IMG/VR virus record: IMGVR_UViG_3300022932_000015
Coordinates: 1 to 64,000 of that record
Reading direction: 5' to 3' (one strand)
DNA from: a virus
Length of the DNA: 64,000 nucleotides
Part shown: one piece after another, positions 272-52,958 of the stretch
Numbering within the stretch: position 1 is the stretch's first letter
How the letters are laid out: each line of letters opens with the position of its first letter
Program-made: the position numbers and the translations under genes
The notes under the pieces: generated by a model
What the model was told of the DNA's origin: nothing
Databases searched by the model: none
What the model saw: only the letters and a program-made list of their open reading frames with translations

Positions 272-3200
272 ATGCCTGTAAATCCAAAAAAATTATCAAG
301 TCTTTCAGAGAGACTTGGAGAAACTTCTACTACTCTTACTACTGACTTATTAAAGAATAGATTAGCAGAATCTAATACTTATGTAGGGAACATTGCACCT
401 ACATACGGTGAATCTCAATATGATGAGAGTGCTCCAGTACCTTCAGTTTTAGAAGGAAGCTTAGAAGATTATAGAGGAGAAGTTCAAACTAGGTTGGATA
501 AGATGGCTAATGCTGTTCCTAGACTTTTATCAAAGGTAGGTACTGAAATAGCTAAGACTCCAGGATATGTGTATGCTTTAGGAGAATCAGGTTTAACTGA
601 CAAAACCTTAGCAGAATCTTTAGACAATGCATGGTTAAATAATTTAGACAAATTTGATCAATCTGTTAAAAAGCAATTTGAAATTTATAAACCTAAGTCT
701 GTAAGAGAAGGTAATATATGGGATAATTTAACTTCAACTTCTTTCTGGACAGATGAAGGTGTTGATGGAGCAGGATTTTTATTATCTATGATAGCTCCTG
801 GAGCTGCATTGAAAGCAACAGGCATTGCAGGCAAGCTAGCTAAGTTACCTGTACTAAGTAAAATAGGAGCTTCTAATATTGAATTAGGGCAAGCTACATT
901 ATTAAATACTTCATTAGAATCAGCAGCTGAAGCAAAAGGTATTGTTGATAACTTGAAAGAACAATTTAATGGATTATTAAATCCAGACTCCCCAACTTAT
1001 AATCCTATAAATCCTAAGACAGGTGAAACTTGGACTAAAGAAGAGGTGAATAATGCTATTGGCGAAGCTGGGGTTAGTACATTTCAAATGAATATGGGCT
1101 TATTATTAGTTCCAAATATCATTATGAATAAGAATCTACTAGGTAGATTTAATAATTCAAAAACTATACTCGATGAATTTAAAGATGCTACTGGTAAATT
1201 TGTTACTACAAACCCTATAGTTAAGAAATCTTTAGTAAAAGAATACTCAAAAGGTATTGGAGAAGCTGCATTATCAGAAGGATTTCTAGAGGAAGCTGGA
1301 CAAACAACTATAGAGAACTACAACAAAAAAGTAGCACTTAACCAAACTAATGGTGAAGTGTTAACAGGATTGGCTTCTGAGTATTTAGAAACATTAGCTT
1401 CAACAGAAGGGCAGAAAGCTATTTTGCTTGGTTCTGTGTTAGGTAGTTTAGGTGGAGCTACTGGTAAATCTAGACAATTAAAGCAAGATAATATAACAAG
1501 ATCTAAACTTACTGATCTTATTAATGATAACTTTGAAGGTTTTAGTGTTTCAATGGATAATATTATTGATAAAGATGAGCAGGGGAATGTCATTATAGAT
1601 CCTGAGACTAATAGCCCTAAGATAAATGTTAATGAAGCTACCAAAGTAGTTTCTAACCTAGTTAAAGAACAACAATCTACAAACCTTCAGGATCTAGAAG
1701 CTCTTAAAGGTAATAAAGATTTATATGATTACATTTTTAATCAACAACTATCCAGATTTGCTATACCTTATCTTCAACAAGAAGGTGGAGAGGAAATATT
1801 AAATCAACATATTGACAATCTATCTAAAGATTTAACAAAGGCCAATCAGAACAATTTTCAAGAGAATGAGTTCAAGGGACAAATTAAGTCTCAAATAAAG
1901 GATTTGAAATCTGTCTACACTGGATTAGTAGACACTATAAATAATTTACCATTAGAACAACTATCTAATAACTATGAGCTAGTTGGTAAATTTAGTGATA
2001 AATTGCTAAATACTGCTTACCAAGAATCAAGCAAACAATTATTTCTAACAAAAAAGATTAAGGAATTAAGTAATCAATTACTTTCTATAAGAGCTACAGC
2101 TCAAGAAAATGTATCTCAATTTAATATTGAAGCAGAAAAATTAACTAATCGTATAGAATCTCTGAATCAATCTTTAGAAATATCTAAAGAAAACTATAAT
2201 GCTATCTTTGATCCAGAACAACAAAAAGCTGCATTTGAAGACTTTAGTGTACAGGAAGAAGAAAATGAACCTGAAGTTAAACAAGAAGTTCCTATTCCAG
2301 AAACTAGTGAGCCAGTAGAAGAAACCCCTACGTATACTCAGAATTCAGAACTAGATAATGAAGTTAAGCAAGCTAAAACCAAAGAGGATTTAGATAGTAT
2401 ATTTGATAAATACTTTGATGAAACAAATGGTGAAGAATTAGAAAATATATTAACATCAAGAAATAAAGTAATAGATGAGCAAAATTCCCACTTAGTTGGA
2501 GTAGATCAGGTTAATAGTGTTATAGAAAGTCTTAACAAAGAAGATCATGAAGCAGAGTTAAGAGATATAAAATCTAATCTTGAATCAATAAAAAATTTAA
2601 CTTCTTATGATAATTATGACACTTCCTTCAAACAAACCTTAGAGGATACTTTAGGAAGAGTAAATAACGTATTAGATGATGTTGTTAGTGAAGATGATAA
2701 CATAGTTAATGAAGCTTCTAATAATACAATATCTTTAATTATACAAAACCAGGATATTGAAAGTACTAATCCATTAGGATTACAAGATTCTATACAGAAT
2801 GTAAAATCATTTAGTACTAAAGTTTACAATACAGTCATGATGAAACTTTTTGAATCTAAATATTCAAAAGGAAAAGGATTACAGTTTGTAAAAAATAATG
2901 AGGGAGAAGCTGTTAAAACAAGTACTACAATTAGTATGGTAGTTAACAATCCTAACATTGTTAAAAAAGGAGATGTCATAAGTTTTGAAATAACTACTCT
3001 TGAAGGAGATCAGAATTTAGATAATGAAGCAAATATTGCTATCTCTAAAGAGATAATTAATAGAGATACAGATGATCTATACTCAGTAGCAGATAAGGAA
3101 TTTGGGAAATATTATAGAGAATCTATAGCAATTAGACACAAAGACTCTAATGAAATCATAGGATTTGTTGCTTTGCCTCATGCTTTATCTGAAGTATCAG

Positions 3201-6200
3201 AAGATACTATAGAATCAAAGCAAGCTAGATTGGATATTAGAAATCAATTAATAGCTCAGAGGAAAAGAATAATAGATTTACTAAATAATAATGAGGTAGT
3301 TGAAACTACTATATTTGATAAAGGACCAGGAAAATTATTACTAAAATCAGATAAGGATGGTATCCCAATCATGAGTTCTATTATATCTAGAAATCAGGAT
3401 TTAATAGATGGTAGAGATATATATGTAGTTGACAAAGGTTATGATCTATCTGGTAATATAGAAGGCTTTGGTATCCCTAACAAAGAAGATTTTGTAAAAG
3501 CTTCTGATAGGTTAGCTATTAATGAATTGTTTAGTAAATTATCTGGAAGAACTTTTTCTGATACATCTGGTAATAATAAAGGTAGAGTATTTAAAGCAGT
3601 AAAAAACTCTAATAATACTTGGTCTCTAATTCCTGTTTATGCTACCTCTATTGGAGCAGAAAAGGCAGAGAAGATTATTAAAAAATTAAAAACCTTTGTT
3701 TCACAAGTTGGAGGAGTATACACACCAAACTTAAAAGCTATCTACAGTGAGTTAGGTAAAGATGTTTATATTACTAATACTGATAAGAGAGGTGTCTTAA
3801 AAATAGACAATTTTAAAATTAATGGTAAACAGTGGGGTGCATTGTTTAACAATCCTAGTTTTGAAAAAGAATTATTAGACAACATTAGTAAAGCTAAAAA
3901 TAATATTATTACTCAATTATTGAATACTGATAATGGTATAAAGGATATTTTAGAGACTAATGCTTACCAAGAAGATGGAGAATATTTTGTACAGCCATAT
4001 ATTGAATTTACAGGTATCCAAACTACTAATGTAGTAGAGACTCAAGAAATAATTGAGGAAAAACCTATTAATAGTACTGAAAAATTATCTAATGATAAAT
4101 TAGATTTGCCTGAAGATGTATTAGGACTTGATATTTTAGATGAAGAAGTATTTACATCTAAATCAACTAAAGGAAAATTAAATAGAAAAAATATAACTGA
4201 ATTTCTAGAAACAAATCTTCCTGGTATTACCTTAGCTGATCAAGACTTAGTATCACAAGTTAAACCATATGTAAAAGATGCTGTAGGTATGTTTTATAGA
4301 AGTACTATTTATTTATTTAAGGATAGTACTAATAACACTGCTTACCATGAAGCTTTTCATGGAGTTTTCAGAAATATACTTTCGGTAGATGAAAGATCTG
4401 CTGTAATACATCAAGCTAAAGCTTACTATTCAGCTCCATCTATTGAAGAGTTGAATAATCTTAGTTATACAATAACTCCTGAAACTAGAGCTAAATTAAC
4501 AGAAAAGCAGTTAACTGATGCTTTAAAACAACTTTACTATGAAGAGAAGTTAGCAGACTCATTTGCTGACTATACAGAATTAGTACAGGAAAAAACTCTA
4601 GGGGATAAAATAAAAGATTTCTTTAGAAAATTATTCAGAATATTTAACCTGTTTAAAAGATATAATGAAGATCAAATAACTTCATTGTTTGATAGTATTA
4701 ATACTGGTAAATATTCTGAGAGATCTAAGACTACACAGTTTGATAGAGCTATAACAAGTGAACTATTAAATCCTGCTTATAAAAAACCTGATAACATTCC
4801 TATCTCTGAATTTTTAGATAGAAGTAAATCTATTGAAGATGTATTCTACTATAGACTTAATCAACAGTTAGAATTAGGTCTTACAATGGAGAAAATAAGA
4901 ATTGGTGATATTTTTAATAGCATTAGACAAGACTATAGATCTAAAGCTATAGAATTTAACAAAGTGGGGGAAAAGTACAAATCTGCAGTAAGTACTAATG
5001 TATATAACAACTGGGATAGCTATGTTGAACAAGTTATAGCTAATTTACAGAAAAGGAAGATTAAAATAAAAGTTAAAGATAATAATGAGATAGAGAGTCT
5101 AGACACCAATGGTATACCAGATACAACTAATAATGTTGAAAATATGGATATTGAAAATGTTGAGGTTGGTATAAATAAATCTTATGGTCAAGAAATGACA
5201 GCTATTTCTGGAATTAGATCTGCAGGAGACAAGCTTAAATTGTTTCTTTCTGCTCTACCAATATTAGAAGACAATAGAATTAAAACAGATGCTTATGGTT
5301 TTGAACAATTCTATGATTATGAAAGAATATATTATCAGCTAGAAATTTACTTACTTGAAAAACCAACGTTTGAAGAGCAGTATGATGAAATAAAATATCT
5401 GGCTACTTATAAGCCTGAGATGTATCAAGTATTAAAAGCTTTGGATACTTTAAAAGGTGAAAGTGGAGAGCAGATAAAGAAACAATTTAGAACTAACTTC
5501 TATAAACAACAATTAAAATTTAAATTAGTATTGTTTGAAAAAAGTAGAGCTGACGGAAAATATAGTTTCAAGATAGTTGATTCTAATAGGAAAGATATAA
5601 AAAGATCTATTACTAGTGATTGGACAAATAATTTGATAGACCCATCTAGAACTAAAGAGAATCTTGTTAGATTTGAAAATTCAGAATATAAATTAGATCA
5701 AGATAAAATAAAGAAATTAGTAACTGAGTTTGAGAATACAGCTTTGACTGAAGACTATGCTTTTAACACATTATACAGATTAGGTATTGAATTTAAAAGA
5801 GAAGATTTTTCTAAAGTATATAAATCAAATGAGGGAATAATCTCAACTAATATAAAAAATTACTTAAACTCTTTAGCTTCAAAAGAAGTTACTAGAAAAG
5901 GTAGAGAAGCATTTGAATGGTTTGTTAACCAGCAAGTAGTATTTAACCAAAGTTTATTTACACAATCATTTAACAATACTGAAAATTCGATTGTATATTC
6001 AATACAGAATAACAGTTTCTCTAGTAGATTAGTAAATAAATTAACTAAGGGGAATAATAGTGGATTCATTAATGATCTAAAGAGAGATCCTATTTATAAG
6101 TACTTAAGTATGCTTGAAGCTCCTTACATAGCTAAGAGCTTAAGAACTTTTGCTATAGATGGTTTAAAAGATGGCGTTGGTGAAAATATAGGCAAAAAAT

Positions 6201-9200
6201 ATAGAAGCATACATCCAGATGATTATACAGCTATGGCTATTGCAGCTTATCTTAATGAATCAGGAAATCAATCTACTCAAGGATTAAGTACTGCAATTTA
6301 CACACCTATAGTACCTTCTGAGAAAACTCAAGCATTCCTAAACCAAGGACCTAAATACTTAGGATTCATAATTAATGAAAATGGAGTATTAGAAGAGACT
6401 TCTGATACACAAAGATTTAATAAGATCTTCTGGTTAGAAGCAGATAGAATAAAAAGAGCAAATAAAGATAGAGATTTATATAATTCTGAAACAGAATTGA
6501 TTAATCAAGGTAGATTAGATAAAAGAACTTTTAATCCTAATCCAAATTATCATGGTAAAAATTTTAATGGTAATGCTTACAAATTCAGTATATTAAATTA
6601 TTCTAAGGCTTTAGATCCGAAAGGAGATTTATATAATGCAATATTTAATGAATTCAATAATTCTGAATTGGATGCTTCTCAGTTTTTTGGAGATTCTAGA
6701 AAATTTGTAAAAGAAATAAATGCTGAAATACTTACAATACTAAATAACAAATATAAAAACCAACTAGATAGTCTTATTGATTCTGGTATAATAAAAACTT
6801 CTTCAGAAGGATTGTTAACTTCTAATGTAATAGATCTAGCTTCTTATAATCCTCTTCAGCAAATAAGTGAAGATTCTAAATTAAAAAATCTAGTTGCAGA
6901 ATTCACACTAAACACTAGTTTGTTTAATATAGAATACTCATTGTTAATGAATGGGGATCCTGCTTATTACAAGGACAAGAGTGATTGGGCTAAAAGGTTT
7001 TATCAATCACAAGCTGAAACTAGTAGCTATGACTCTAGTGATTTTGAAGATGGTAGGATACAAATAATGGCTTTCAATGATATTGAAGAGTCTTTAAATA
7101 AAGATTCTTATAATGATATTATTGAAATGACCAAAGATTTGCCTAATAATGCTACTACTAAATCTATTCTAGACTCTGATTATTCAGAATCTAATAGTAT
7201 TAATGTAGCTGATGCCCAGTTTTATGTCAGTGATGATTTATATGCAAAGTTATTGAAATCTCAAGGTAAGACTACGTTTGAAATATCAAAAGCTTTAGCA
7301 ATAGGTAATGGTAGTACTCAGGGTATTAATTCTAGAGATTATCATCAACAATTATCTATTCTTAAAACATTCACTTATGGAGTTCAATGGAATGACAATA
7401 CAGCTAGATATGAACCTATACAGATTAAGTGTGCCGTATTACCACTTACACCATCATTAGTAGCAGACAATCCTTTATTAAAAAAGAGTTTGGATAGGAT
7501 GAAAGCTAATCCAGATGGTCCACAAGCAATGGCATTTAAATCTACTTTCAAAGCTTTACAACCAAGCTATCAAAATATTGAGGATGTAGAGAATTTTGAT
7601 ATAAGCAAGGTTGTTAATTTAGAGGTTGAGAATATGGGTCTTCAAGTTGATAATCCTAACCATGGGTTAGACGGAGAGAATAGTTCAACTAGACAATTAA
7701 AAATGTTATTCTATGGTATGTTAGATAATGAAACTTCTTATAATGGAGTTTTAGGAAAAGATATTAAGTATGAGTTACAACAATTAGAGTCTAAGAATAA
7801 CTTAGAGTCTTTAAATAAATTACTAGATCTTTTTAACAGAAAAGATGAAAGATTACTTAGAATGATTCAAGAAGCAGCTACTAAGAGAAATGCTACTTCA
7901 ATTGTTCAGAAGGTATTTGATATTGATCCAAATACTGGTGATTTTAGATACCCTCTTGATACTCTACCAACTAGACAAACTATAGAATTACTTTCAAGTA
8001 TATTCACTAAGAATGTAGTTTTACAAGAATTTAGAGGTGGTGCTATGGTTCAAGCCTCAGCTTTAGGTTTTCAATTCAAATCTGAATTTAGTAATCTTGA
8101 GGAACAACAAGCATTGGTAGAAGGAACTAAGGAGTTATCTGATATACAAACAAGTTTAAAATGGATAAGGAAGGAAGATGATACTAAAATAGATTATATT
8201 GAAGTAGCTCTTCCATATTACTATTCTGATTTTTTAGATAATAACGGTCAATTTAAAAAAGATATTCCTGAGGAATTATTAAGGATAATTGGTTATAGGA
8301 TTCCTACAGAAGGAGCTCACTCAATGTTACCACTTAAGGTAGTAAAATTCTTACCTAAAGAATATGGTAATGTCATTTTGTTACCTTATGAAATTACCAA
8401 GCAGATGGGAGCTGACTTTGACTTTGATAAGATTTATTTCTTATCAAGAGAATATTATATGAAAGGTAAAGCTTTAGAAGTATATAAATATTCTACAAAC
8501 CCAGAAAATACTGATTTAAGATATGAACAATATATTAACAGTGTATTAAATGAGAACAAGGAAGCTTTAAAAGTTAAGAGAGATGCTAGAGAAGATGCTA
8601 AAGCAGTTAATAAATTAGCTAGAGAAGCTGGAGAAGAGGAATATAAGTATACATTCCAAGATGATATTAATCTATTAGTAGATGAAGGATATATTATTTC
8701 TAGAGAAGATTTTAACAATCTTGGTATTGAAGACCAATTAACTAAAGAAGCTAGGAATAATAGAATCTTAGATTTATATACAGCTGTGTTGAGAGATGTT
8801 AATACATTAAACTCACTTATTGCTCCTTCTGGTCCTGGAGATATCTCATTAGTTTATAATGAGGTAGCTAAATATAAAACCAAAGAAACTCAAGATTATT
8901 TTAGTTTCTTAGGACAATTAGGAATTAAAAAATTATTTGATGACATTATAGGTTTAAAAGGTCAATCAGCACTAAAAGTTACAGGACACTCATTTGTTAG
9001 TTTAGGAAACTTAATAGCAAATGAAAATCCATTTTCTTATAGAGAAGGTGAGAATGTAACTAGTGTTTCTAGCCTGTCTCAGACAGAAAGTAGACAAGGT
9101 AATAAAATAGTTGAAGAATTATCTTCTATGATGGCTGCTATTTTAGATGCCGTTAAAACACCAACAATGCTACCATACTTAAATATATCTTCAAAAACTA

Positions 9201-11080
9201 TTAATATATGGTCTACAATAGTTAGATTTGGTATGGGGACTAAAGTAGCTTCAGAATTCACTGCACAGGAATCTGTAGGTATAATATCAGAAAGATTGAT
9301 GTCTAATGATAAACAAATAAAAGATGGTAATCAATTTAATAACAAAGTAGTAGATGAAGTATTTGATTTATACAAATCTAAATTCTTAGCTATTTATAAT
9401 AATTATGATCCAGGAGACATATCATTACAATTATTTGGTAGATCTTTTAGTGATACTAAAACCTTAAATAATTTATTAAATTCTACCGTAGTTGATTTGG
9501 ATAAATTAACTATTTATACAGGTAAATCTGAAGATGTAGTTAGAAAAGAATTAAAGGATGAGAAGCTATTATTAGATTTTTATCTTACTCAAATGAATGT
9601 AGTTAAATCCTTCCAGAACCTTGAAAGCTTATCTAAGAAATTACAGCAAGTTGACAGTATATTTGGATTGAATAAAGAGGTTGGCCCTACTTTTGAAACA
9701 ACTAATGGTAAACAAGAGGTAATAAGTGAAGTTAATACCTATGAGGCAGATGAGGATGGATCTGGAGTATTTATAGGTATCCAGGATCTTCTTCAGGAAC
9801 CTATTATTAACTCATACATTAATATCAATACTGAATTCTTTAATCAACTAAACGACAGGTTTGGGTTTGCGAATGAATACTATAATTCAATAAAAAGATA
9901 TATTGCAAAAAATCTAAATGTTAAAAATGATAGAGGATTAACAGGATTAAAGCCTAAGGATAGAGACTCAATTAATTCATTTATAACAACATATTTAGAT
10001 GCATATTCAACAATGGCTGATAGCTATAATACTTCATCTGATGAATCAGGCTTCACTGATACTGAGTTAGTAGATGAAATCACCAAATTGAAATCTCCAA
10101 AATTTGATGAAAAATATGAATGGAAGATATTTGGTGGTAAAACTATTAAACAATCTACAAAAAGAATGTTTGAAGAGTCTTCTTTAATGCAACATCTTAA
10201 AACTAGAATTCTAGATAATTCTAATATAAAGGTAATATCTCTAAAAGGTAATAGACTTGAATTGTCTCAAAAAGAAAAGATTATTGCTGATATTAACAAA
10301 CTCTATAAAAACCCAAACAGTAAAGGCTTAATAGAAGGTTTAGTAAATCATAGTTTTAAATATTCAGGCTTTTATACAGGACTAGATAGCTATCATAGTT
10401 TAATTGATCCTGAGATTTTACAAGAAATGGGATTTGTTAAGAATAGACAGATATTAAAAGAAATTATCAATTCAAATAGTGATAATACAATTAAAAGTGA
10501 TATATTTGTAGGTAGATTAATTGATCAACTTATCAGAAATAATGTGAAGCTAACAAAAACATTTGACTTGGATTTAGTAAAAGGAGATTCTTTGTTTATT
10601 AAAACAAGCGATGGATTCAGAGTAAATTATGAAACTACACATCCTAGGAGTACTGAGTTATTTAAATTAGATGATAATGGAGAATATATTTTAAATGAAT
10701 ATATTAGAATATATTTAGATGATAAAGCACAAGGATTTAAAGGTAGTAAATTGTTTAAGCTAGAAGGTAATGTTTATAAAGAAACTAGTAAGTTGGGAAT
10801 ACCAGGACATTTGGTTGAGATAAATCCATTCTTTGATTTACAAAAATCAACCTATCAACCAAATAACTATACTAAGTTTGGTACAGTAGTTAAAGAATTA
10901 ACTCCATCAGAAGAACAAGTAGTAGAAGGAGAGAACAATGAAGCTAATGAAATTAAAGATGAGTATAGTAGCATGACTTCTGATGATATGGATATATTAA
11001 ACCAACAATCATCAGACATAATTAATCCAGATAATATTACTCCTGATGAGGAGTTACCAGATAATATAAAACCTTGTTAA
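272..11080 (+). CDS. Giant virion-packaged RNA polymerase (crAss-like vRNAP) with zincin-like domain
   Basis: 3602 aa; GYRIP...MGADFDFDK catalytic DxDxD motif; HEAFH...EEKLAD zincin motif; crAss-like gene context. Confidence 0.9.
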   Translation: MPVNPKKLSSLSERLGETSTTLTTDLLKNRLAESNTYVGNIAPTYGESQYDESAPVPSVLEGSLEDYRGEVQTRLDKMANAVPRLLSKVGTEIAKTPGYVYALGESGLTDKTLAESLDNAWLNNLDKFDQSVKKQFEIYKPKSVREGNIWDNLTSTSFWTDEGVDGAGFLLSMIAPGAALKATGIAGKLAKLPVLSKIGASNIELGQATLLNTSLESAAEAKGIVDNLKEQFNGLLNPDSPTYNPINPKTGETWTKEEVNNAIGEAGVSTFQMNMGLLLVPNIIMNKNLLGRFNNSKTILDEFKDATGKFVTTNPIVKKSLVKEYSKGIGEAALSEGFLEEAGQTTIENYNKKVALNQTNGEVLTGLASEYLETLASTEGQKAILLGSVLGSLGGATGKSRQLKQDNITRSKLTDLINDNFEGFSVSMDNIIDKDEQGNVIIDPETNSPKINVNEATKVVSNLVKEQQSTNLQDLEALKGNKDLYDYIFNQQLSRFAIPYLQQEGGEEILNQHIDNLSKDLTKANQNNFQENEFKGQIKSQIKDLKSVYTGLVDTINNLPLEQLSNNYELVGKFSDKLLNTAYQESSKQLFLTKKIKELSNQLLSIRATAQENVSQFNIEAEKLTNRIESLNQSLEISKENYNAIFDPEQQKAAFEDFSVQEEENEPEVKQEVPIPETSEPVEETPTYTQNSELDNEVKQAKTKEDLDSIFDKYFDETNGEELENILTSRNKVIDEQNSHLVGVDQVNSVIESLNKEDHEAELRDIKSNLESIKNLTSYDNYDTSFKQTLEDTLGRVNNVLDDVVSEDDNIVNEASNNTISLIIQNQDIESTNPLGLQDSIQNVKSFSTKVYNTVMMKLFESKYSKGKGLQFVKNNEGEAVKTSTTISMVVNNPNIVKKGDVISFEITTLEGDQNLDNEANIAISKEIINRDTDDLYSVADKEFGKYYRESIAIRHKDSNEIIGFVALPHALSEVSEDTIESKQARLDIRNQLIAQRKRIIDLLNNNEVVETTIFDKGPGKLLLKSDKDGIPIMSSIISRNQDLIDGRDIYVVDKGYDLSGNIEGFGIPNKEDFVKASDRLAINELFSKLSGRTFSDTSGNNKGRVFKAVKNSNNTWSLIPVYATSIGAEKAEKIIKKLKTFVSQVGGVYTPNLKAIYSELGKDVYITNTDKRGVLKIDNFKINGKQWGALFNNPSFEKELLDNISKAKNNIITQLLNTDNGIKDILETNAYQEDGEYFVQPYIEFTGIQTTNVVETQEIIEEKPINSTEKLSNDKLDLPEDVLGLDILDEEVFTSKSTKGKLNRKNITEFLETNLPGITLADQDLVSQVKPYVKDAVGMFYRSTIYLFKDSTNNTAYHEAFHGVFRNILSVDERSAVIHQAKAYYSAPSIEELNNLSYTITPETRAKLTEKQLTDALKQLYYEEKLADSFADYTELVQEKTLGDKIKDFFRKLFRIFNLFKRYNEDQITSLFDSINTGKYSERSKTTQFDRAITSELLNPAYKKPDNIPISEFLDRSKSIEDVFYYRLNQQLELGLTMEKIRIGDIFNSIRQDYRSKAIEFNKVGEKYKSAVSTNVYNNWDSYVEQVIANLQKRKIKIKVKDNNEIESLDTNGIPDTTNNVENMDIENVEVGINKSYGQEMTAISGIRSAGDKLKLFLSALPILEDNRIKTDAYGFEQFYDYERIYYQLEIYLLEKPTFEEQYDEIKYLATYKPEMYQVLKALDTLKGESGEQIKKQFRTNFYKQQLKFKLVLFEKSRADGKYSFKIVDSNRKDIKRSITSDWTNNLIDPSRTKENLVRFENSEYKLDQDKIKKLVTEFENTALTEDYAFNTLYRLGIEFKREDFSKVYKSNEGIISTNIKNYLNSLASKEVTRKGREAFEWFVNQQVVFNQSLFTQSFNNTENSIVYSIQNNSFSSRLVNKLTKGNNSGFINDLKRDPIYKYLSMLEAPYIAKSLRTFAIDGLKDGVGENIGKKYRSIHPDDYTAMAIAAYLNESGNQSTQGLSTAIYTPIVPSEKTQAFLNQGPKYLGFIINENGVLEETSDTQRFNKIFWLEADRIKRANKDRDLYNSETELINQGRLDKRTFNPNPNYHGKNFNGNAYKFSILNYSKALDPKGDLYNAIFNEFNNSELDASQFFGDSRKFVKEINAEILTILNNKYKNQLDSLIDSGIIKTSSEGLLTSNVIDLASYNPLQQISEDSKLKNLVAEFTLNTSLFNIEYSLLMNGDPAYYKDKSDWAKRFYQSQAETSSYDSSDFEDGRIQIMAFNDIEESLNKDSYNDIIEMTKDLPNNATTKSILDSDYSESNSINVADAQFYVSDDLYAKLLKSQGKTTFEISKALAIGNGSTQGINSRDYHQQLSILKTFTYGVQWNDNTARYEPIQIKCAVLPLTPSLVADNPLLKKSLDRMKANPDGPQAMAFKSTFKALQPSYQNIEDVENFDISKVVNLEVENMGLQVDNPNHGLDGENSSTRQLKMLFYGMLDNETSYNGVLGKDIKYELQQLESKNNLESLNKLLDLFNRKDERLLRMIQEAATKRNATSIVQKVFDIDPNTGDFRYPLDTLPTRQTIELLSSIFTKNVVLQEFRGGAMVQASALGFQFKSEFSNLEEQQALVEGTKELSDIQTSLKWIRKEDDTKIDYIEVALPYYYSDFLDNNGQFKKDIPEELLRIIGYRIPTEGAHSMLPLKVVKFLPKEYGNVILLPYEITKQMGADFDFDKIYFLSREYYMKGKALEVYKYSTNPENTDLRYEQYINSVLNENKEALKVKRDAREDAKAVNKLAREAGEEEYKYTFQDDINLLVDEGYIISREDFNNLGIEDQLTKEARNNRILDLYTAVLRDVNTLNSLIAPSGPGDISLVYNEVAKYKTKETQDYFSFLGQLGIKKLFDDIIGLKGQSALKVTGHSFVSLGNLIANENPFSYREGENVTSVSSLSQTESRQGNKIVEELSSMMAAILDAVKTPTMLPYLNISSKTINIWSTIVRFGMGTKVASEFTAQESVGIISERLMSNDKQIKDGNQFNNKVVDEVFDLYKSKFLAIYNNYDPGDISLQLFGRSFSDTKTLNNLLNSTVVDLDKLTIYTGKSEDVVRKELKDEKLLLDFYLTQMNVVKSFQNLESLSKKLQQVDSIFGLNKEVGPTFETTNGKQEVISEVNTYEADEDGSGVFIGIQDLLQEPIINSYININTEFFNQLNDRFGFANEYYNSIKRYIAKNLNVKNDRGLTGLKPKDRDSINSFITTYLDAYSTMADSYNTSSDESGFTDTELVDEITKLKSPKFDEKYEWKIFGGKTIKQSTKRMFEESSLMQHLKTRILDNSNIKVISLKGNRLELSQKEKIIADINKLYKNPNSKGLIEGLVNHSFKYSGFYTGLDSYHSLIDPEILQEMGFVKNRQILKEIINSNSDNTIKSDIFVGRLIDQLIRNNVKLTKTFDLDLVKGDSLFIKTSDGFRVNYETTHPRSTELFKLDDNGEYILNEYIRIYLDDKAQGFKGSKLFKLEGNVYKETSKLGIPGHLVEINPFFDLQKSTYQPNNYTKFGTVVKELTPSEEQVVEGENNEANEIKDEYSSMTSDDMDILNQQSSDIINPDNITPDEELPDNIKPC

Positions 11081-19796: not shown

Positions 19797-20003
19797 CTAC
19801 TCAACTCTTGAAACTTTAACTCCTTTTATGCCATTTTCTTCTATATTAGAAGTACTGAAAGTCTTATTTCTATTAACATTTTTAGACTTTTGCATACTTA
19901 ATATATCACACAAATCTTTTACAGTTTTATTTGGTATAAAGAAACTTTCATCAACTTTAAGATCTGTAATTGGACATTTGAAAGATCCTCTTCTAGCTCG
20001 CAT
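19797..20003 (-). CDS. Small basic hypothetical protein
   Basis: LKVDESFFIP...GVKVSRVE; overlaps upstream stop. Confidence 0.6.
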   Translation of the reverse strand: MRARRGSFKCPITDLKVDESFFIPNKTVKDLCDILSMQKSKNVNRNKTFSTSNIEENGIKGVKVSRVE

Positions 20004-21582
20004 ATCTATTTAACTTTGTTCTAATTTGATCTAAAGTAGTTTCTCTAACTAATTTTCCATCTTTGAATACAGTAGTTAATAATTGTATCATATTACCTTT
20101 TCCAGATTCTTGTTCCCAAGTACATTGATCCACTACACCAATAGCATCTTTAATTACATTATTAGTGTTTTGCCAACCCTGTGTTACTACTAATAATCCT
20201 TTTTTAGATTTCTTAGTACCATCATCAGTAATAGGATCTTTAAAGATTTCTTTCCATTCTCCATTTACTTCACCTCCAGTAGCTTTCATTGCAAACCCAA
20301 AAGTATCTCTAGTATTGTATTGATAAGTATAACTTCCTATACCTAATACTATATTAGTACTAGCAAAACCTTTAGCTTTTAATCTTTCACAGATTTGAAT
20401 AGCTCTTTCTGTAGTAATAGAATCACCATAGATGGCTCCAATACGAGAATCTAGTACTTTGTATCCTTGTGTATTGACAGTACCACCAAAAATATCCCAA
20501 AGAAGTTCTATAACTCCATGCCTACTTTCATATGTCAAATCCTTACCAGTCTCCTTGTCTCTATAATTAAAACCTTTATCTTCTGGTCTAATTATTTCAA
20601 GCTCATCTAGCTCATAACCACATATAATCCTTATAGGATCTCCAGAATCAGGTCTAATTACTAACTTACCATCTCTAGCCAATATTTGCTCTTTAATTTG
20701 AGGTAAGAAGTCACCTATAACTTTCCATAAATTCCAAGTATCAGATACCACAGATAGTATACCTTTTGGATATAAATCTAATAATCTTTTAAAGGTTTCT
20801 ATTTCAGATTCCTTCTCACCCATACACATAACAGAATGTTCAGTAGCAGGGACACTAGCTCCAATTAATCCTTCAGCTTTATAACTAGATTCAAGTTTAT
20901 AAATAGCAGGAATAGTATCAGTCCCAGTAAAGGATAATAAATGTCCCATCCCACTAAGAATAGCTGATTCAGGGCTAGACATACCACGCATACTAAAATC
21001 ATGACCTTGCCATTGAACACCTTCAGTACTTCCTGTAGTTTCAATTGCATACTTTTCAAGTATTTTCTTATATTCATAGGCTATTGTTGCTGATGTTACA
21101 GGTTGCCATAACATACAACTAATTAAGGTTTCTAAATAATTAACTAACCATGCGAAATCTGCATGGGTATTAGTAATTGTTAACATAGGAACTCCAATTG
21201 GACATAAAGTACCTTCTTCTAGAGCTTTAATTTCAATAGGTAAGTAACCCAAATCCCATAAAGCTTCAATATGAGTGGTATCTACATCACAGTGTCTTTT
21301 ATATTCAGTAATTACTCTTTGTTTAGTATCATCTAAAATAAAATCTTTGCCTATCTCCTCAAGTTTCTTTCTGTTTCCTAATGAAAAGTAAAAAAACTCT
21401 TTATTAAATTTATCAATTAAATATTCTAAAATGAAATGCTGTATACCAAATACAACTACTTCATCTATACCTGCAATTCTAGATTTACGAGGAGTAAAGT
21501 TAGAATATAGTTTTGTCATACCTTCAGGATACATCCTAGTATGATGAATTTTGTAGCTATCTACAAGTAGTAATGGATTCAT
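19993..21582 (-). CDS. nadV: Nicotinamide phosphoribosyltransferase-like protein (NAMPT/Namat)
   Basis: DSYK, HDFSMRG, SVPATEHS, SVVSDT, IRPDSG, YGD, KKSKKG. Confidence 0.92.
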   Translation of the reverse strand: MNPLLLVDSYKIHHTRMYPEGMTKLYSNFTPRKSRIAGIDEVVVFGIQHFILEYLIDKFNKEFFYFSLGNRKKLEEIGKDFILDDTKQRVITEYKRHCDVDTTHIEALWDLGYLPIEIKALEEGTLCPIGVPMLTITNTHADFAWLVNYLETLISCMLWQPVTSATIAYEYKKILEKYAIETTGSTEGVQWQGHDFSMRGMSSPESAILSGMGHLLSFTGTDTIPAIYKLESSYKAEGLIGASVPATEHSVMCMGEKESEIETFKRLLDLYPKGILSVVSDTWNLWKVIGDFLPQIKEQILARDGKLVIRPDSGDPIRIICGYELDELEIIRPEDKGFNYRDKETGKDLTYESRHGVIELLWDIFGGTVNTQGYKVLDSRIGAIYGDSITTERAIQICERLKAKGFASTNIVLGIGSYTYQYNTRDTFGFAMKATGGEVNGEWKEIFKDPITDDGTKKSKKGLLVVTQGWQNTNNVIKDAIGVVDQCTWEQESGKGNMIQLLTTVFKDGKLVRETTLDQIRTKLNRYAS

Positions 21583-49967: not shown

Positions 49968-50453
49968 TTAACCAATCTTCTTTTTCTTTCTAATGTCAGA
50001 GATAACTTGTCTTCTTACATTGTATAATTCACATATAGACTTTATAGTCTTGTGTGGATTGTTTTCAATATCTTTCAAGACTTTTTCTATCAATTCAGTA
50101 GAATACTTTTTGTTTACTGGAATATTACCCTTCTTGAATTTGTATGATTCCATATTCATAAGTGGTAGTCTGCCTTTTTTGTAGGCATCTTTCATGTTAT
50201 CAGAATGTGTACCTAAAAATAGATGTTTAGGATTAACACATAAAGGATTATCACATTTATGACAGACAAATACATTTGAATCATTTATTTCACCATACTT
50301 AAGTATATATGATAATCTGTGACTATCAATTATTCTTTTCTGATATCTTATAACTCCATAATTACCTCTCATTCCTGCTTTCCATTCCCAACAATCTTCA
50401 TCATTATTAGTTACTCTTACTTTACTCCAGAATCTTTCGATTATAGTACTCAT
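49968..50453 (-). CDS. HNH homing endonuclease immediately downstream of tmRNA
   Basis: RFWSKV, CWEW, HRLSY, VCHKCDNPLCVNPKHL..GT..DN; start moved to MSTIIERF outside the tmRNA. Confidence 0.9.
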   Translation of the reverse strand: MSTIIERFWSKVRVTNNDEDCWEWKAGMRGNYGVIRYQKRIIDSHRLSYILKYGEINDSNVFVCHKCDNPLCVNPKHLFLGTHSDNMKDAYKKGRLPLMNMESYKFKKGNIPVNKKYSTELIEKVLKDIENNPHKTIKSICELYNVRRQVISDIRKKKKIG

Positions 50454-50466
50454 TTGTTTTAATTTG

Positions 50467-50855
50467 TGGAGCTGGACAGGTACGATCTGTCGTGTTCCAT
50501 AATTCATTATTAATTTTCTACAAGTTTAGCATATCTTTTTCTCCTAATGCAGGATATTTGATTCTTAATCAAAAAAGCAACACATTGGCTAGTTATAGTC
50601 TTCCTATGTGTGAAGTGGTTGACTTTCCAATATTAGGCTGCTAACTCTAATTCTGCAATTGGGGCAGATGTCAATTTAATGACTTTTGCTGAAGCGCTTT
50701 TTACAACTGCAAGAACATCAGCGATGCCTCCTACTTCGTTGGTTATTACAACATTGTCCGTTAGAACTTGAAACCATAGATTAAAGTGATAGATAACATC
50801 TCACTACTTGCTTATCAATAAATTATTACAGAGTCTATAGCCAACTCTCAGCCCC
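50467..50855 (-). ncRNA. ssrA: tmRNA with 41-aa tag ending ELAA
   Basis: 5' GGGGCTG pairs with 3' CAGCTCC-A (G3:U70); T-arm GACAG/CTGTC; UAACG-GAC resume context; tag frame 50758-50633. Confidence 0.9.
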
Positions 50856-50964
50856 AATTCTTTATACTTTACTTTAATCCCTTTTTACAATTAAGATACT
50901 AAGGATTGTTTAAAGAATTTATTTTTTACTATGTTAGTATAGTTAATATTATGTGTATTAAAAT
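50856..50964 (-). ncRNA. DGR spacer RNA 2 (Sp2)
   Basis: Homologous to Sp1; covarying hairpins at 50927-50939 and 50876-50907. Confidence 0.75.
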
Positions 50965-51027
50965 ATAAGTAACTTGACTATTAGAATTGTAGTTGTTGTA
51001 ATTCGAGTTGTTGAACACTAAACTACT
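50965..51027 (-). repeat. DGR template repeat TR2
   Basis: 63 nt ungapped versus VR2; 15 mismatches, all at TR adenines; AAC/AAT-rich. Confidence 0.95.
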
Positions 51028-51040
51028 AGAAGTTATAATA

Positions 51041-51490
51041 TTAACGTTGAATGATTTTGTATAAATGAGCATAATTCTTACCTACAAAATCAGAGGTTTT
51101 CTGATCTTTGAAATAAGCAACCTGACCAATAGAACAGTAGCTGCTGTAATCCGAGCTGAGGAACACCAAACCACCTTTTTTATCATTCTCATGATAAGGA
51201 TACCATTTCTGTTGGTCATGATCAGTCCAATCTAAGATCCAATCTTCATTAAAGAATTTTTGTACTTGTTTTAATTGAGCAACTGCTACATGAAATTCTA
51301 TCTCTTCTGGTGTGAATAAATTAGAAAAGTGCTCTGATTTTACTTCATATTCTTTCAAAGCTCTACATATACTTGGATAATCAGCTCCTATTTTGAATAA
51401 ATCTGCGGGAGCATTTACTACCTTTTCTAGTTCCATTATTGTTGCTTTTAGCTCATTGATTTTTTCCTGAGCTTTCTTTTTATCTGTCAT
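51041..51490 (-). CDS. DGR target protein 2
   Basis: Contains VR2 (GGLVFLSSDYSSYCSIGQVAY); paralog of target 1. Confidence 0.92.
   Translation of the reverse strand: MTDKKKAQEKINELKATIMELEKVVNAPADLFKIGADYPSICRALKEYEVKSEHFSNLFTPEEIEFHVAVAQLKQVQKFFNEDWILDWTDHDQQKWYPYHENDKKGGLVFLSSDYSSYCSIGQVAYFKDQKTSDFVGKNYAHLYKIIQR
51085..51110. other. Hairpin just 3' of VR2 (candidate DGR target-recognition hairpin)
   Basis: CAAA-ATCAGA-GGTTT-TCTGAT-C-TTTG. Confidence 0.5.
51113..51175 (-). repeat. DGR variable repeat VR2
   Basis: Matches TR2 except at 15 adenine positions. Confidence 0.95.
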
Positions 51491-52434
51491 AAGTATTTAT
51501 TTTTTAAGTTTATACTATTACAATGAGATAACCATCCATTGTAGCTTGCTATTGATTTTTTATTATTATTTTTCCTGATCATTCTTATAAATCTTAGTTT
51601 TATACTCTTTCTCAGTAAAATATGTGTATGATAAGATTTATATCCAAGGAAATCTATTCCTCTAGATTTTACAGGAAATATTTGATAATTTGATTTTATT
51701 TTAAGTTTCAAATTTACATTTAGATATTGCTCTATCAAATGTAATATTCTGTGTAATTCTTGTTTATTGCTTCCCAATATAACTAAATCATCACAATATC
51801 TAAAATAGTATTTTACTTTTAAAGTTTCTTTAATCCAATGATCAAAATAGCTTAAATAAAAATTAGCAAAATATTGAGATAGATAATTTCCAATAGGTTG
51901 TCCTTTACAACTATCTATTATATTACTCAATAAACTCAGTAGATTTTTATCTTTAAATTTCTTGAGTAATAATTCTTTTAAAATATCGTTATCAATGTTT
52001 GGGTAGAACTTTTTGATATCTAATTTTAAGCAGTATTGAGTCTCCTCTTTGTTTTTTAATGCTTTATTTAGAGAATTTAGACCTTTGTGTATACCTCTAT
52101 TCTTTATACAGTTATAAGTATCTTTAGTAAATGTTGATACAAATATAGGTTCTAAAATATTCATTATAGCATGATGTACTATTCTATCTGGGTAATAGGG
52201 TAACTTATATATTTCCCTTTCTTTTGGATCAAAAATTGTGAATATTTTGTATTCTGACGTGTTATAGTTATTGTTTAATAGTATTTGATTTAAATTTAAT
52301 ATATTATTATCATAGTTCTTGTCAAATTCTATTACGTCTTTATTTTTAGATTTACCAATTCTAGCCTTTTTATCGGCTAGTATTAAATTATCTATATCAC
52401 AAATTTTATTATATAAGTTACCTATTCGTTTCAT
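51487..52434 (-). CDS. DGR reverse transcriptase
   Basis: KEREI, DRIVHHA, KLDIKKFY, GQPIGNYLSQ (DGR-type SQ), YFRYCDD, DFLGY; 315 aa with no maturase or endonuclease domain. Confidence 0.95.
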   Translation of the reverse strand: MKRIGNLYNKICDIDNLILADKKARIGKSKNKDVIEFDKNYDNNILNLNQILLNNNYNTSEYKIFTIFDPKEREIYKLPYYPDRIVHHAIMNILEPIFVSTFTKDTYNCIKNRGIHKGLNSLNKALKNKEETQYCLKLDIKKFYPNIDNDILKELLLKKFKDKNLLSLLSNIIDSCKGQPIGNYLSQYFANFYLSYFDHWIKETLKVKYYFRYCDDLVILGSNKQELHRILHLIEQYLNVNLKLKIKSNYQIFPVKSRGIDFLGYKSYHTHILLRKSIKLRFIRMIRKNNNKKSIASYNGWLSHCNSINLKNKYL

Positions 52435-52532
52435 CTTATACTTCTTAAGTCTCTTTCAATAGTTTACTAAAGACTCTTTAAGTTTGTTATCTTTTACCCA
52501 GTGGTATGGTTAATACTAATTAGTCTAAAATA
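52435..52532 (-). ncRNA. DGR spacer RNA 1 (Sp1)
   Basis: Between TR1 and the RT start; hairpins at 52495-52506 and 52448-52475. Confidence 0.75.
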
Positions 52533-52591
52533 TAATAAGTAGAGTAGTTAGAATTGACATTATAGTTGTTCACGTTATTCAGTACCTAACT
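52533..52591 (-). repeat. DGR template repeat TR1
   Basis: 59 nt ungapped versus VR1; 15 mismatches, all at TR adenines. Confidence 0.95.
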
Positions 52592-52604
52592 AAAACATTT
52601 AGTA

Positions 52605-52958
52605 TTAACCTAAATATGAATTGTATAATTTTATAAGCTCATTTGCCATCACTCTTGCTGTATCTTCTTTCTTATAATAGTAAGAAGCAGAGAAGTGAGA
52701 AGTGACACAATAGCTGTACACGCTACCCAGCACCCAACCATCTTCTTTAGAAAATCTAAAATATGGTAGATACTTATATTCATTACCATTGTTAAAGTCT
52801 GGTTCCCATATTTTGTCATCATTATCTAGATAGTTTTTTGCTTTGATTATCGTCTCTAAACTGTAAGATATCCAATCTTTCTTCCTTCTAAATTGATGTT
52901 CTACATATCTTTGATGACCAACTTTAAATAATATTTTCTCAGCTTCTTCTAAACTCAT
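52605..52958 (-). CDS. DGR target protein 1
   Basis: Contains VR1 (GWVLGSVYSYCVTSHFSAS). Confidence 0.92.
   Translation of the reverse strand: MSLEEAEKILFKVGHQRYVEHQFRRKKDWISYSLETIIKAKNYLDNDDKIWEPDFNNGNEYKYLPYFRFSKEDGWVLGSVYSYCVTSHFSASYYYKKEDTARVMANELIKLYNSYLG
52681..52739 (-). repeat. DGR variable repeat VR1
   Basis: Matches TR1 except at 15 adenine positions. Confidence 0.95.

What the first reader, a model, noticed from the sequence alone, without database searches (positions are those of the whole stretch)
50856..52610. Both TR RNAs share a covarying structure, and the target gene sits where avd normally is
Seen: each TR is enclosed by an inverted repeat whose upstream arm overlaps the target gene's stop codon: GGTTAATACTAA/TTAGTATTAACC (52508-52519, 52599-52610) and GTTAATATTAT/ATAATATTAAC (50942-50952, 51035-51045). 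Downstream, both spacers have a small hairpin (TACC-ACTG-GGTA versus TACTA-ACA-TAGTA) followed by AAA, then a second stem (AGTCTTT...AAAGAGACT versus AATCCTT...AAGGGATT) and an AAGTATAA tail. The stem sequences differ but pairing is kept. No avd-like ORF lies in or next to the element. Known: in BPP-1 the avd 3' end pairs with the spacer in the functional RNA. Inference: both RNAs are under selection, so cassette 2 is live, and the system either needs no Avd or the targets/a trans factor fill that role.
Basis: partly seen in the sequence, partly recalled or inferred. Interest (0 to 1): 0.8.

Follow-up and report, generated by a model that had tools for sequence, protein, structure and literature searches.

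The report
Twin RNA scaffolds of Avd-less DGR
A crAss-like phage carries a protein-diversifying retroelement in which one reverse transcriptase is flanked by two gene-plus-template cassettes, and each template sits in the same conserved, covarying RNA scaffold, a known but unassigned RNA motif (Rfam RT-17) that this lineage uses without the usual Avd helper protein.

Summary
On the minus strand the order is target1, TR1, Sp1, RT, target2, TR2, Sp2. Each TR is enclosed by an 11-12 bp helix (P1) whose upstream arm covers the target stop codon. After P1 come a short hairpin, an A-run and a second stem.

By themselves the two repeats are not beyond chance in this AT-rich DNA. The weight comes from relatives. 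All 80 related viral loci carry the same RNA directly upstream of the RT. Across 56 sequences, 23 of 25 pairs show compensatory changes. A spacer-only model built without the window and without any second cassette finds both Sp1 and Sp2.

The spacer is Rfam RT-17, which Weinberg 2017 left without a function. P1 plus hairpin plus A-run matches the "cPRT Stop" of the Bordetella phage DGR RNA. The Avd-binding stem-loop has no room here.

No Avd was found in the complete 94-kb genome. That is already known for lineage-3 DGRs (target-TR-RT architecture), crAss-like phages included, so the target sitting "where avd is" is ordinary.

The new parts are:
- RT-17 is linked to Avd-less DGR templates.
- The twin cassette is conserved in at least four phages.
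- One relative carries an orphan cassette 24 kb from its only RT.

Activity of cassette 2 is inferred, not shown. First-stage notes from this scan cover the same stretch of this genome; none describe it on other DNA.

The parts
52605..52958 (-). Target gene 1 (117 aa). VR1 core lies at 52681-52739.
   Evidence: ORF. VR/TR alignment with 16 A-only mismatches. No Pfam or PHROG family.
52599..52610 (-). P1 5' arm of cassette 1 (GGTTAATACTAA). It overlaps the target1 stop codon.
   Evidence: Sequence. Paired in the MFE fold and in the model alignment. The homologous helix covaries in 56 sequences.
52528..52594 (-). TR1. The adenine-mutagenesis core is 52533-52591 and, read in the target frame, encodes an Asn-rich stretch.
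52508..52519 (-). P1 3' arm of cassette 1 (TTAGTATTAACC), 13 nt after the TR core.
52435..52507 (-). Sp1. P2 hairpin at 52495-52506, then an A-run and a single-stranded stretch. P3/P4 stem with the UUAGUA / GAAA internal loop at 52447-52476. The tail runs up to the RT start codon.
   Evidence: Rfam RT-17 at 35.6 bits, E 1.9e-4. Model R2 at 52 bits, E 1.4e-7.
51487..52434 (-). DGR-type reverse transcriptase, 315 aa, with the IGNYLSQ and YCDD motifs.
   Evidence: RVT_1 at E 5.9e-18. phrog_1423 at E 2.4e-117. Invariant motif columns.
51041..51490 (-). Target gene 2 (149 aa). VR2 core lies at 51111-51175. The start codon overlaps the RT stop.
   Evidence: phrog_11581 at E 4.7e-6. Confident model (pLDDT 89) places the VR on a beta-strand and the loop after it.
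51035..51045 (-). P1 5' arm of cassette 2 (GTTAATATTAT). It overlaps the target2 stop codon.
50961..51029 (-). TR2. The core is 50963-51027.
   Evidence: 16 of 25 TR adenines changed in VR2 and no non-A mismatch in the core.
50942..50952 (-). P1 3' arm of cassette 2 (ATAATATTAAC), 10 nt after the TR core.
50857..50941 (-). Sp2, an orphan spacer with no RT behind it. P2 hairpin at 50927-50939, then AAAAA. P3 is 50901-50907 with 50876-50883. The tail ends one base before a tmRNA-like gene.
   Evidence: Model R2, built without the window or any second cassette: 38.4 bits, E 5.4e-5. Model R1 over the full cassette: 64.6 bits.

Best explanation
This is a diversity-generating retroelement (DGR) of the Avd-less, target-TR-RT type, in a Crassvirales-like phage of Bacteroidota. 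It has been expanded to two self-contained cassettes around one RT.

Each cassette is transcribed as an RNA in which a helix (P1) joins the last bases of the target gene to the first bases of the spacer and so encloses the TR. P1 ends in G:C pairs and is followed at once by a 4-5 bp hairpin and a run of adenosines. Next come a single-stranded stretch and a stem with conserved internal loops (UUGGUA / GAAA) capped by a variable hairpin.

By analogy with the Bordetella phage DGR RNA:
- P1 + hairpin + A-run is the 'cPRT Stop'. It positions the template, bounds cDNA synthesis, and keeps mutagenesis within the TR.
- The downstream single strand and stem correspond to the thumb-ring and RT-binding elements that hold the RNA on the RT.
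- The Avd-binding stem-loop is absent, which matches the absence of Avd.

The one RT is translated from the message behind Sp1. It acts in cis on TR1-Sp1 and in trans on TR2-Sp2, and the adenine-mutagenised cDNAs replace VR1 and VR2.

Shown: the anatomy, the covariation, the family membership of both spacers, the A-only TR/VR differences, the lack of a detectable Avd, and activity of the family in a relative.

Inferred: the roles of the helices, trans use of cassette 2, and independence from any accessory protein.
For: - Structure: RNAalifold on a plain MAFFT alignment recovers P1, P2, P3 and P4, and 20 of 21 pairs have compensatory changes.
- Covariation: with the full 25-pair structure, 92.3% of cells pair. 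Shuffles give 75.2% and slid partners 38-44%. There are 280 double-change cells against 84 for shuffles, and none of 500 shuffles reaches the observed value.
- RNA rather than DNA: many G-U pairs lie on the RT-sense strand (UG 15, 9, 18 and 15 at four pairs), which points to an RNA structure on that strand.
- Independent detection: spacer-only model R2, trained on 51 RT-proximal spacers without the window and without any second cassette, finds Sp1 (E 1.4e-7), Sp2 (E 5.4e-5) and the second cassettes of L001, L080 and L007.
- Association with the RT: R2 finds exactly one spacer directly upstream of the RT in all 80 related viral loci. Only two copies exist in the whole 94-kb genome.
- Known motif: Rfam RT-17 matches Sp1 and passes its gathering score in relatives L003 and L012.
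- BPP-1 parallel: an 11-bp avd:Sp duplex, a short stem-loop, then unpaired adenosines that make A-minor contacts with G:C pairs at the duplex end (Handa et al., doi 10.1101/2023.10.23.563531). Here the terminal GG/CC pairs are kept in 53 and 48 of 55 sequences.
- No room for an Avd-binding stem-loop: the linker from TR end to the P1 3' arm has a median of 6 nt (range -2 to 17), against 58 nt in BPP-1.
- No Avd: PF05635 and TIGR02436 give nothing at E<=10 in the complete genome or in five related records.
- DGR hallmarks: both TR/VR pairs differ only at TR adenines.
- Activity in the family: proviruses L003 and L004 are identical over 5945 nt except for 11 VR positions, all at TR adenines.
- Trans use: relative G006 has one RT and a complete target-TR-Sp cassette 24.5 kb away.
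- Twin design: it is kept in L001, L007 and L080, whose RTs are 66-71% identical to this one.
Against: - No direct evidence that either cassette of this phage is active. No near-identical genome was found for comparing VRs.
- Both window spacers score below the Rfam RT-17 gathering score, and Sp2 is not reported by Rfam at E<=1.
- Single-sequence fold energies are not better than shuffles, and inverted repeats of this size occur by chance in this DNA.
- P1 of cassette 2 has lost one of the two terminal G:C pairs.
- I could not find a template:primer duplex or a conserved priming adenosine. With a linker of about 6-13 nt the BPP-1 geometry cannot be copied exactly, so initiation may work differently. 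No extra covarying helix appeared.
- The absence of Avd rests on two profile HMMs for a poorly conserved protein.
- The wider family carries a conserved OB-fold-like gene after the RT, which suggests a helper may normally be needed.
Confidence: 0.75

Rival explanations
1. The system is not accessory-free. A helper protein that the profiles cannot recognise works with the RT in trans. It could be a very divergent Avd, another small nucleic-acid-binding protein of the phage, or a host protein.
For: - Avd proteins are very poorly conserved (PMC5758913).
- 66 of 75 related loci have a basic ~98-aa gene (mean pI 8.7) whose start overlaps the RT stop, although the flanking genes differ.
- Its confident model (pLDDT 91) looks like an OB fold, with weak matches to OB/SSB-type domains and an Atlas lead to a Phi29-SSB-bearing cluster.
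- The window has many small ORFs of unknown function.
Against: - Neither Avd profile nor a profile of the 98-aa family (best E 0.42 among 723 six-frame ORFs) finds anything in the complete genome.
- The RNA lacks the stem-loop that binds Avd in BPP-1.
- Wu et al. also found no avd elsewhere in the genomes of avd-less DGRs.
Confidence: 0.3
2. Cassette 2 is a duplicated relic. It once worked but is now only drifting, and its resemblance to cassette 1 is inherited rather than selected.
For: - Sp2 scores lower than Sp1 (38 against 52 bits) and is missed by Rfam.
- One terminal G:C pair of P1 is lost.
- Decayed extra TR-VR pairs with non-A substitutions are reported in Zeta crAss-like phages (PMC12386605).
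Against: - TR2 and VR2 have no non-A mismatch in a 65-nt core, with 16 of 25 TR adenines changed.
- The target2 ORF is intact and folds confidently.
- All four helices of Sp2 are kept through different sequences.
- The same RT-distal cassette is kept in L001, L007 and L080 despite about 30% RT divergence, each with 16-23 A-only mismatches.
Confidence: 0.1
3. The conserved spacer RNA is a 5'-UTR regulatory element of the RT gene (translation or attenuation control), not a reverse-transcription scaffold.
For: In 80 of 80 loci it ends at the RT start codon, and the tail AAAAGCAAAGG-ATG is conserved.
Against: - Orphan copies have no RT behind them. Sp2 is followed by a tmRNA-like gene. The second cassettes of L001, L007 and L080, and the remote cassette of G006 24.5 kb from its RT, are likewise not followed by an RT.
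- Every copy is preceded by a TR.
- P1 pairs the spacer with sequence upstream of the TR.
- The layout parallels the BPP-1 RNA, whose elements are required for cDNA synthesis.
Confidence: 0.05

Closest known systems
Bordetella phage BPP-1 DGR RNA (avd 3' end - TR - Sp; Rfam RT-10; cryo-EM by Handa et al., doi 10.1101/2023.10.23.563531)
   Same: A duplex between sequence upstream of the TR and the spacer encloses the template. It ends in G:C pairs and is followed directly by a short stem-loop and unpaired adenosines. Then come a single-stranded stretch and a stem with interior loops just before the RT gene.
   Different: - The upstream strand comes from the end of the target gene, not from avd.
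- There is no Avd and no 31-nt Avd-binding stem-loop.
- Only about 6-13 nt lie between the TR and the duplex, against 58 nt in BPP-1.
- No recognisable primer strand was found.
- There is no sequence similarity, and a different Rfam family matches.
Rfam RF03020, RT-17 RNA motif (Weinberg et al. 2017, PMC5737381)
   Same: The hairpin, A-run, UGGUA/GAA stem and AAAAGCA tail upstream of an RT gene. Relatives L003 and L012 pass the gathering score, and Sp1 scores 35.6 bits against a gathering score of 40.4.
   Different: - RT-17 was left without an assigned function and starts only at the last bases of P1, so it does not include the TR-enclosing helix.
[quoted passage not shown] Here and in L001, L007 and L080 the RNA lies on both sides.
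- The AT-rich crAss-like versions fall just under the curated threshold.
Lineage-3, architecture A1 DGRs without avd (Wu et al. 2018, PMC5758913), including crAssphage LMMB (Morozova et al. 2020, PMC7290462)
   Same: Target-VR-TR-RT order with no avd. The RT region is about 65% identical at the DNA level to the LMMB RT.
   Different: - LMMB has one TR and diversifies a 486-aa tail-collar fibre.
- Here there are two TRs and two small targets (117 and 149 aa) of unknown fold.
- Lineage membership was not tested here by a tree.
DGRs with more than one TR (Stenotrophomonas sp. SKA14, PMC6642488; Zeta crAss-like phage Lera, PMC12386605)
   Same: One RT with two or three TR-VR pairs.
   Different: - Lera has Avd, and its extra pairs carry non-A substitutions.
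- No shared spacer scaffold was described for those elements.
- Here each TR carries its own complete spacer RNA, and both pairs are A-only.

Membership tests
Diversity-generating retroelement (DGR) | Reverse transcriptase of the DGR type, with the (I/L/V)GxxxSQ motif and YxDD | tested here: met
   RVT_1 at E 5.9e-18 and phrog_1423 at E 2.4e-117. IGNYLSQ and YCDD are read and are invariant in 31 RTs.
Diversity-generating retroelement (DGR) | TR/VR repeat pair whose differences lie at TR adenines, with the VR at the 3' end of a gene | tested here: met
   Two pairs. Each has 16 A-site differences and no non-A difference in the core.
Diversity-generating retroelement (DGR) | Ongoing adenine mutagenesis, seen as VR variation between copies or in a population | not testable with these tools
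It was shown only for relatives L003 and L004.
Avd-containing DGR (architecture B, BPP-1 type) | avd gene (PF05635 / TIGR02436) in the cassette | tested here: not met
   No match at E<=10 in the complete 94-kb genome or in five related records. The target stop codon lies inside the P1 5' arm, so no gene fits between target and TR.
Avd-containing DGR (architecture B, BPP-1 type) | Avd-binding stem-loop directly after the TR | tested here: not met
   The linker from TR end to the P1 3' arm is 13 nt in cassette 1 and 10 nt in cassette 2. The family median is 6 nt.
Lineage 3 / architecture A1 DGR (Wu et al. 2018) | Target-TR-RT order without accessory genes | tested here: met
Lineage 3 / architecture A1 DGR (Wu et al. 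2018) | RT falls inside lineage 3 on an RT tree | not tested
   The only link is indirect. The RT region is 64.7% identical at the DNA level to crAssphage LMMB, which its authors placed in lineage 3 (PMC7290462).
Lineage 3 / architecture A1 DGR (Wu et al. 2018) | CLec3-type C-type-lectin variable domain | tested here: inconclusive
   The target2 model is confident (pLDDT 89). It has no significant match in Foldseek PDB (best E 0.36) or VIA-align wide (best Z 4.6).
Rfam RT-17 RNA (RF03020) | Score at or above the curated gathering score of 40.4 bits | tested here: inconclusive
   Sp1 scores 35.6 bits and Sp2 is not listed at E<=1. Relatives L003 (44.0) and L012 (40.7) pass, and L080 and L001 (both cassettes) score 34-39. 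A model built from the passing family finds both window spacers.
cPRT-Stop-type DGR RNA element (Handa et al.) | Duplex of sequences upstream and downstream of the TR, an adjacent short stem-loop, then several adenosines | tested here: met
   The function (stopping and licensing cDNA synthesis) is not testable here.
tmRNA (RF00023), for the neighbouring gene | Gathering score of 47 bits, or detection by ARAGORN | tested here: inconclusive
   28.7 bits with E 4e-9. ARAGORN found nothing. The acceptor stem with G3:U and a frame ending ELELAA-stop are present.

The most novel reading that the evidence does not exclude
In this lineage the RNA scaffold (TR-enclosing duplex plus RT-17 spacer) is enough to recruit the RT without any Avd-like protein. 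It is a portable module, so one RT serves several self-contained target-TR-Sp cassettes in trans, adjacent ones as here or one 24 kb away as in G006. The wider family would use a new OB-fold accessory protein (the 98-aa gene after the RT), which the crAss-like branch has dispensed with.
Probability: 0.3. Interest if true: 0.65.

Novelty: new variant of a known kind. Interest (0 to 1): 0.5.

Why it matters
About a quarter of DGRs lack Avd, and how they prime and bound cDNA synthesis is unknown. The structural work on DGR RNA, and its survey of other DGRs, covered only Avd-containing elements.

This family supplies what is needed to test an Avd-free mechanism:
- a compact 315-aa RT;
- a well-defined RNA of about 200 nt whose helices all have natural compensatory variants;
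- natural experiments in which the RNA is separated from the RT gene.

It also gives the orphan Rfam motif RT-17 a likely function. Spacer models could be used to find TR cassettes far from their RT, which repeat-based DGR finders may miss or leave unlinked to an RT.

Tried and rejected
- Searching for VR variation in the same phage. Exact TR1 and TR2 words found no other copy in viral or metagenome contigs. L002 and L007 turned out identical.
- Looking for a template:primer duplex or any further helix by all-against-all covariation. Only the four named helices stand out and the rest looks like lineage noise.
- Targets as Avd substitutes. The target2 model is helices plus a beta-hairpin, with no significant match to any solved fold. 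Nothing supports the idea and nothing excludes it.
- RT with ORF98 complex prediction.
- Promoter and terminator scan. Promoter-like sites were not above shuffles and there were no terminators, so the transcript ends are unknown.
- Pfam and PHROG naming of target1, target2 and ORF98. Only unnamed PHROGs matched (phrog_11581, phrog_19665).
- ARAGORN on the tmRNA-like region found nothing.
Full report
**What is there**

The window is the first 64 kb of a 94,209-bp virus record that CheckV rates complete. A 3602-aa ORF is followed by a 1212-aa ORF. The second matches the RNA-polymerase-associated proteins of crAss-like phages such as Cellulophaga phage phi14:2, uncultured phage cr128_1 and Bacteroides crAss-like phages. 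The RT region is 65-70% identical at the DNA level to RT genes of crAss-like phages. I therefore treat it as a Crassvirales-like phage.

Everything in the finding lies on the minus strand, in this order:
- target1 (52958-52605, 117 aa)
- TR1
- Sp1
- RT (52434-51487, 315 aa)
- target2 (51490-51041, 149 aa)
- TR2
- Sp2, ending at 50857

The RT is a DGR-type enzyme. It matches RVT_1 and phrog_1423 and carries the IGNYLSQ and YCDD motifs.

A scan for repeats that differ only at adenines finds exactly two TR/VR pairs, both with a VR-to-TR offset of 148 nt. In the 59-nt and 65-nt cores all 16 differences of each pair sit at TR adenines, and there is no other mismatch. The TR adenines occupy codon positions 1 and 2, so the TRs read as Asn-rich stretches in the target frame. 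Both cassettes have the hallmarks of a working DGR.

**Checking the observation**

The upstream arms do cover the stop codons of the two target genes.

On its own this is weak. Each RNA folds no better than its shuffles (z = -0.83 and -0.85). Perfect 11-nt inverted repeats enclosing 60-110 nt are expected about 4.5 times in 64 kb of this composition. Two paralogous copies are also too few to establish covariation.

**Evidence from relatives**

The RT has hundreds of relatives. I fetched 80 viral loci at 60-72% protein identity and 80 genomic loci. The genomic loci come almost entirely from Bacteroidota: Flavobacterium, Chryseobacterium, Elizabethkingia, Pedobacter, Sphingobacterium, Chitinophagaceae, Prolixibacteraceae and Bacteroidales.

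Nearly all the viral loci have the layout: one or two small targets, then a TR, then about 100 nt, then the RT. The sequence upstream of the RT is visibly conserved.

A plain MAFFT alignment of 56 non-redundant TR-Sp regions was folded with RNAalifold. It returned the TR-enclosing helix, the hairpin, the outer stem and the inner hairpin, with compensatory changes at 20 of 21 pairs.

I then tested a 25-pair structure that adds the GGUU/AACC base of P1:

| Measure | Observed | Shuffled | Partner slid |
|---|---|---|---|
| Cells forming standard pairs | 92.3% | 75.2% | 38-44% |
| Cells changed on both sides | 280 | 84 | 29-76 |

23 of the 25 pairs change on both sides, and none of 500 shuffles reaches any observed measure. 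The many G-U pairs on the RT-sense strand would be A-C mismatches on the other strand. The structure is therefore an RNA on the sense strand, not a DNA feature.

**An independent test of the two window copies**

A model of the spacer alone (R2, 86 positions, 13 pairs) was built from 51 RT-proximal spacers. It excluded the window and every second cassette. It finds:
- Sp1 at 52 bits (E 1.4e-7) and Sp2 at 38.4 bits (E 5.4e-5).
- The RT-distal spacers of L001 (58.8 bits), L080 (53.6 bits) and L007 (33.9 bits).
- Exactly one spacer immediately upstream of the RT in all 80 viral loci.

The full-length model R1 finds just the two cassettes in the whole genome. Sp2 is thus a true member of the family even though no RT follows it.

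**What it corresponds to**

Rfam already holds this spacer as RT-17 (RF03020). Sp1 scores 35.6 bits against a gathering score of 40.4. Relatives L003 and L012 pass, and both cassettes of L001 and L080 come close.

Weinberg et al. described RT-1 to RT-19 as motifs next to RT genes. [quoted passage not shown]

The cryo-EM study of the BPP-1 ribonucleoprotein (doi 10.1101/2023.10.23.563531) defines these elements:
- A 'cPRT Stop' made of an 11-bp duplex between the avd 3' end and Sp59-70, a short stem-loop, and unpaired adenosines that dock into G:C pairs at the duplex end.
- A single-stranded thumb ring.
- A long RT-binding stem with interior loops.
- Directly after the TR, a 31-nt Avd-binding stem-loop and the primer strand.

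The family studied here has the first three in the same order. P1 ends in GG/CC, kept in 53 and 48 of 55 sequences. A 4-5 bp hairpin follows, then AAAA(A), a stretch of roughly 20 nt, and a stem with the conserved UUGGUA and GAAA loops.

It has no room for the fourth element. The distance from the TR end to the P1 3' arm has a median of 6 nt, and is 13 and 10 nt in the window, against 58 nt in BPP-1.

That survey of other DGRs looked only at elements with an Avd homologue. An Avd-less lineage with a cPRT-Stop-like element but no Avd-binding element is therefore an addition to it, not a repeat.

**Avd**

Neither PF05635 nor TIGR02436 gives any match at E<=10 in the complete genome. PF05635 also finds nothing in five related records, two of them at least 97% complete.

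This is not a discovery. Wu et al. found that 26% of DGRs lack avd, that profile searches do not find it elsewhere in those genomes, and that lineage 3 with its target-TR-RT architecture lacks it altogether (PMC5758913). Morozova et al. described exactly this for crAssphage LMMB (PMC7290462). The target gene sitting 'where avd normally is' is the normal state of this lineage.

**A possible helper in the wider family**

In 66 of 75 related loci a gene of about 98 aa starts inside the last codons of the RT gene, while the genes further out differ from locus to locus.
- It is basic (mean pI 8.7), has no Pfam family and belongs to the unnamed phrog_19665.
- It folds confidently (pLDDT 91) into what looks like an OB fold. 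It has only weak matches to OB/SSB-type domains and an Atlas lead to a cluster partly annotated as Phi29 SSB.

In the AT-rich crAss-like branch (the window, L001, L007, L080) its place is taken by target2-TR2-Sp2. A profile of the family finds nothing in the window's genome (best E 0.42). The complex predictor was closed, so binding to the RT was not tested.

**Is cassette 2 live, and does the RT act in trans?**

Direct evidence is lacking for this phage. The indirect evidence:
- A-only mismatches between TR2 and VR2.
- An intact target2 with a confident model, in which the VR maps to a beta-strand and the following loop.
- All helices of Sp2 kept through different sequences.
- The same RT-distal cassette in three other phages whose RTs differ by about 30%, each with 16-23 A-only mismatches.

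Two findings from relatives add weight:
- Proviruses L003 and L004 are identical over 5945 nt except for 11 positions, all in a VR and all at TR adenines. This Avd-less family does mutagenise.
- G006 is the 82-kb record that holds L067. It has a single RT and a complete cassette 24.5 kb away, made of a 139-aa target with VR, a TR with 19 A-differences, P1, P2 and P3/P4. An RNA that works only in cis with the RT message would not be kept there.

**Open points**
- I could not locate the priming nucleotide or a template:primer duplex, so initiation may differ from BPP-1.
- The targets are small proteins of an unnamed phage family (phrog_11581) with no recognisable fold. What they bind is unknown.
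- Transcript ends are unknown.

**Verdict**

However, the missing Avd, the gene order and the spacer motif are all already in the literature.

[quoted passage not shown] I rate it a new variant of a known kind, of moderate interest to people working on retroelements.

Noticed in passing
window 50464-50855 (-): A tmRNA-like gene starts one base after Sp2. Rfam tmRNA scores 28.7 bits (gathering score 47) with E 4e-9. It has an acceptor stem with G3:U, an odd T-loop, and an open frame ending ...APIAELELAA-stop. ARAGORN does not call it. Cleavage at its 5' end could define the 3' end of the TR2-Sp2 RNA.
   Followed up: partly
L003:3447-3743 and the same place in 66 of 75 related loci: A conserved basic gene of about 98 aa overlaps the RT stop codon (phrog_19665, no Pfam). 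Its predicted fold is OB-like. It is a candidate new DGR accessory gene of the Bacteroidota prophage branch and is absent from the window's genome.
   Followed up: partly
L164 (G006:C1:24600-27600); spacer at G006:25660-25751 (-): A complete target-VR-TR-P1-Sp cassette lies 24.5 kb from the only RT gene of an 82-kb phage record. It is an orphan template cassette that a spacer model finds.
   Followed up: yes
L003 versus L004, positions 1775-1805: Two proviruses from different isolate genomes are identical over 5945 nt except for 11 positions in one VR, all at TR-adenine sites. This is a natural record of DGR activity in an Avd-less element.
   Followed up: yes
window 51041-51490 and 52605-52958 (-); relatives in alignment A4: The DGR targets of this whole family are small proteins (about 117-170 aa, phrog_11581), often in tandem pairs served by one TR. 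The model is confident but matches no solved fold, and they do not resemble tail fibres.
   Followed up: partly
window 49968-50507 (-): An HNH homing-endonuclease gene (HNH_3, phrog_1872) lies directly after the tmRNA-like gene.
   Followed up: no
window 272-11080 (+) and 19993-21582 (-): A 3602-aa ORF with no PHROG match in its first 1500 residues, and a phage nicotinamide phosphoribosyltransferase (phrog_448, E 4e-190).
   Followed up: no
L078 and L079, 1941-2066: A more distant member with a 435-aa target. It carries a much enlarged hairpin in place of P2 and has an extra 131-aa ORF between the RT and the ORF98-like gene.
   Followed up: no
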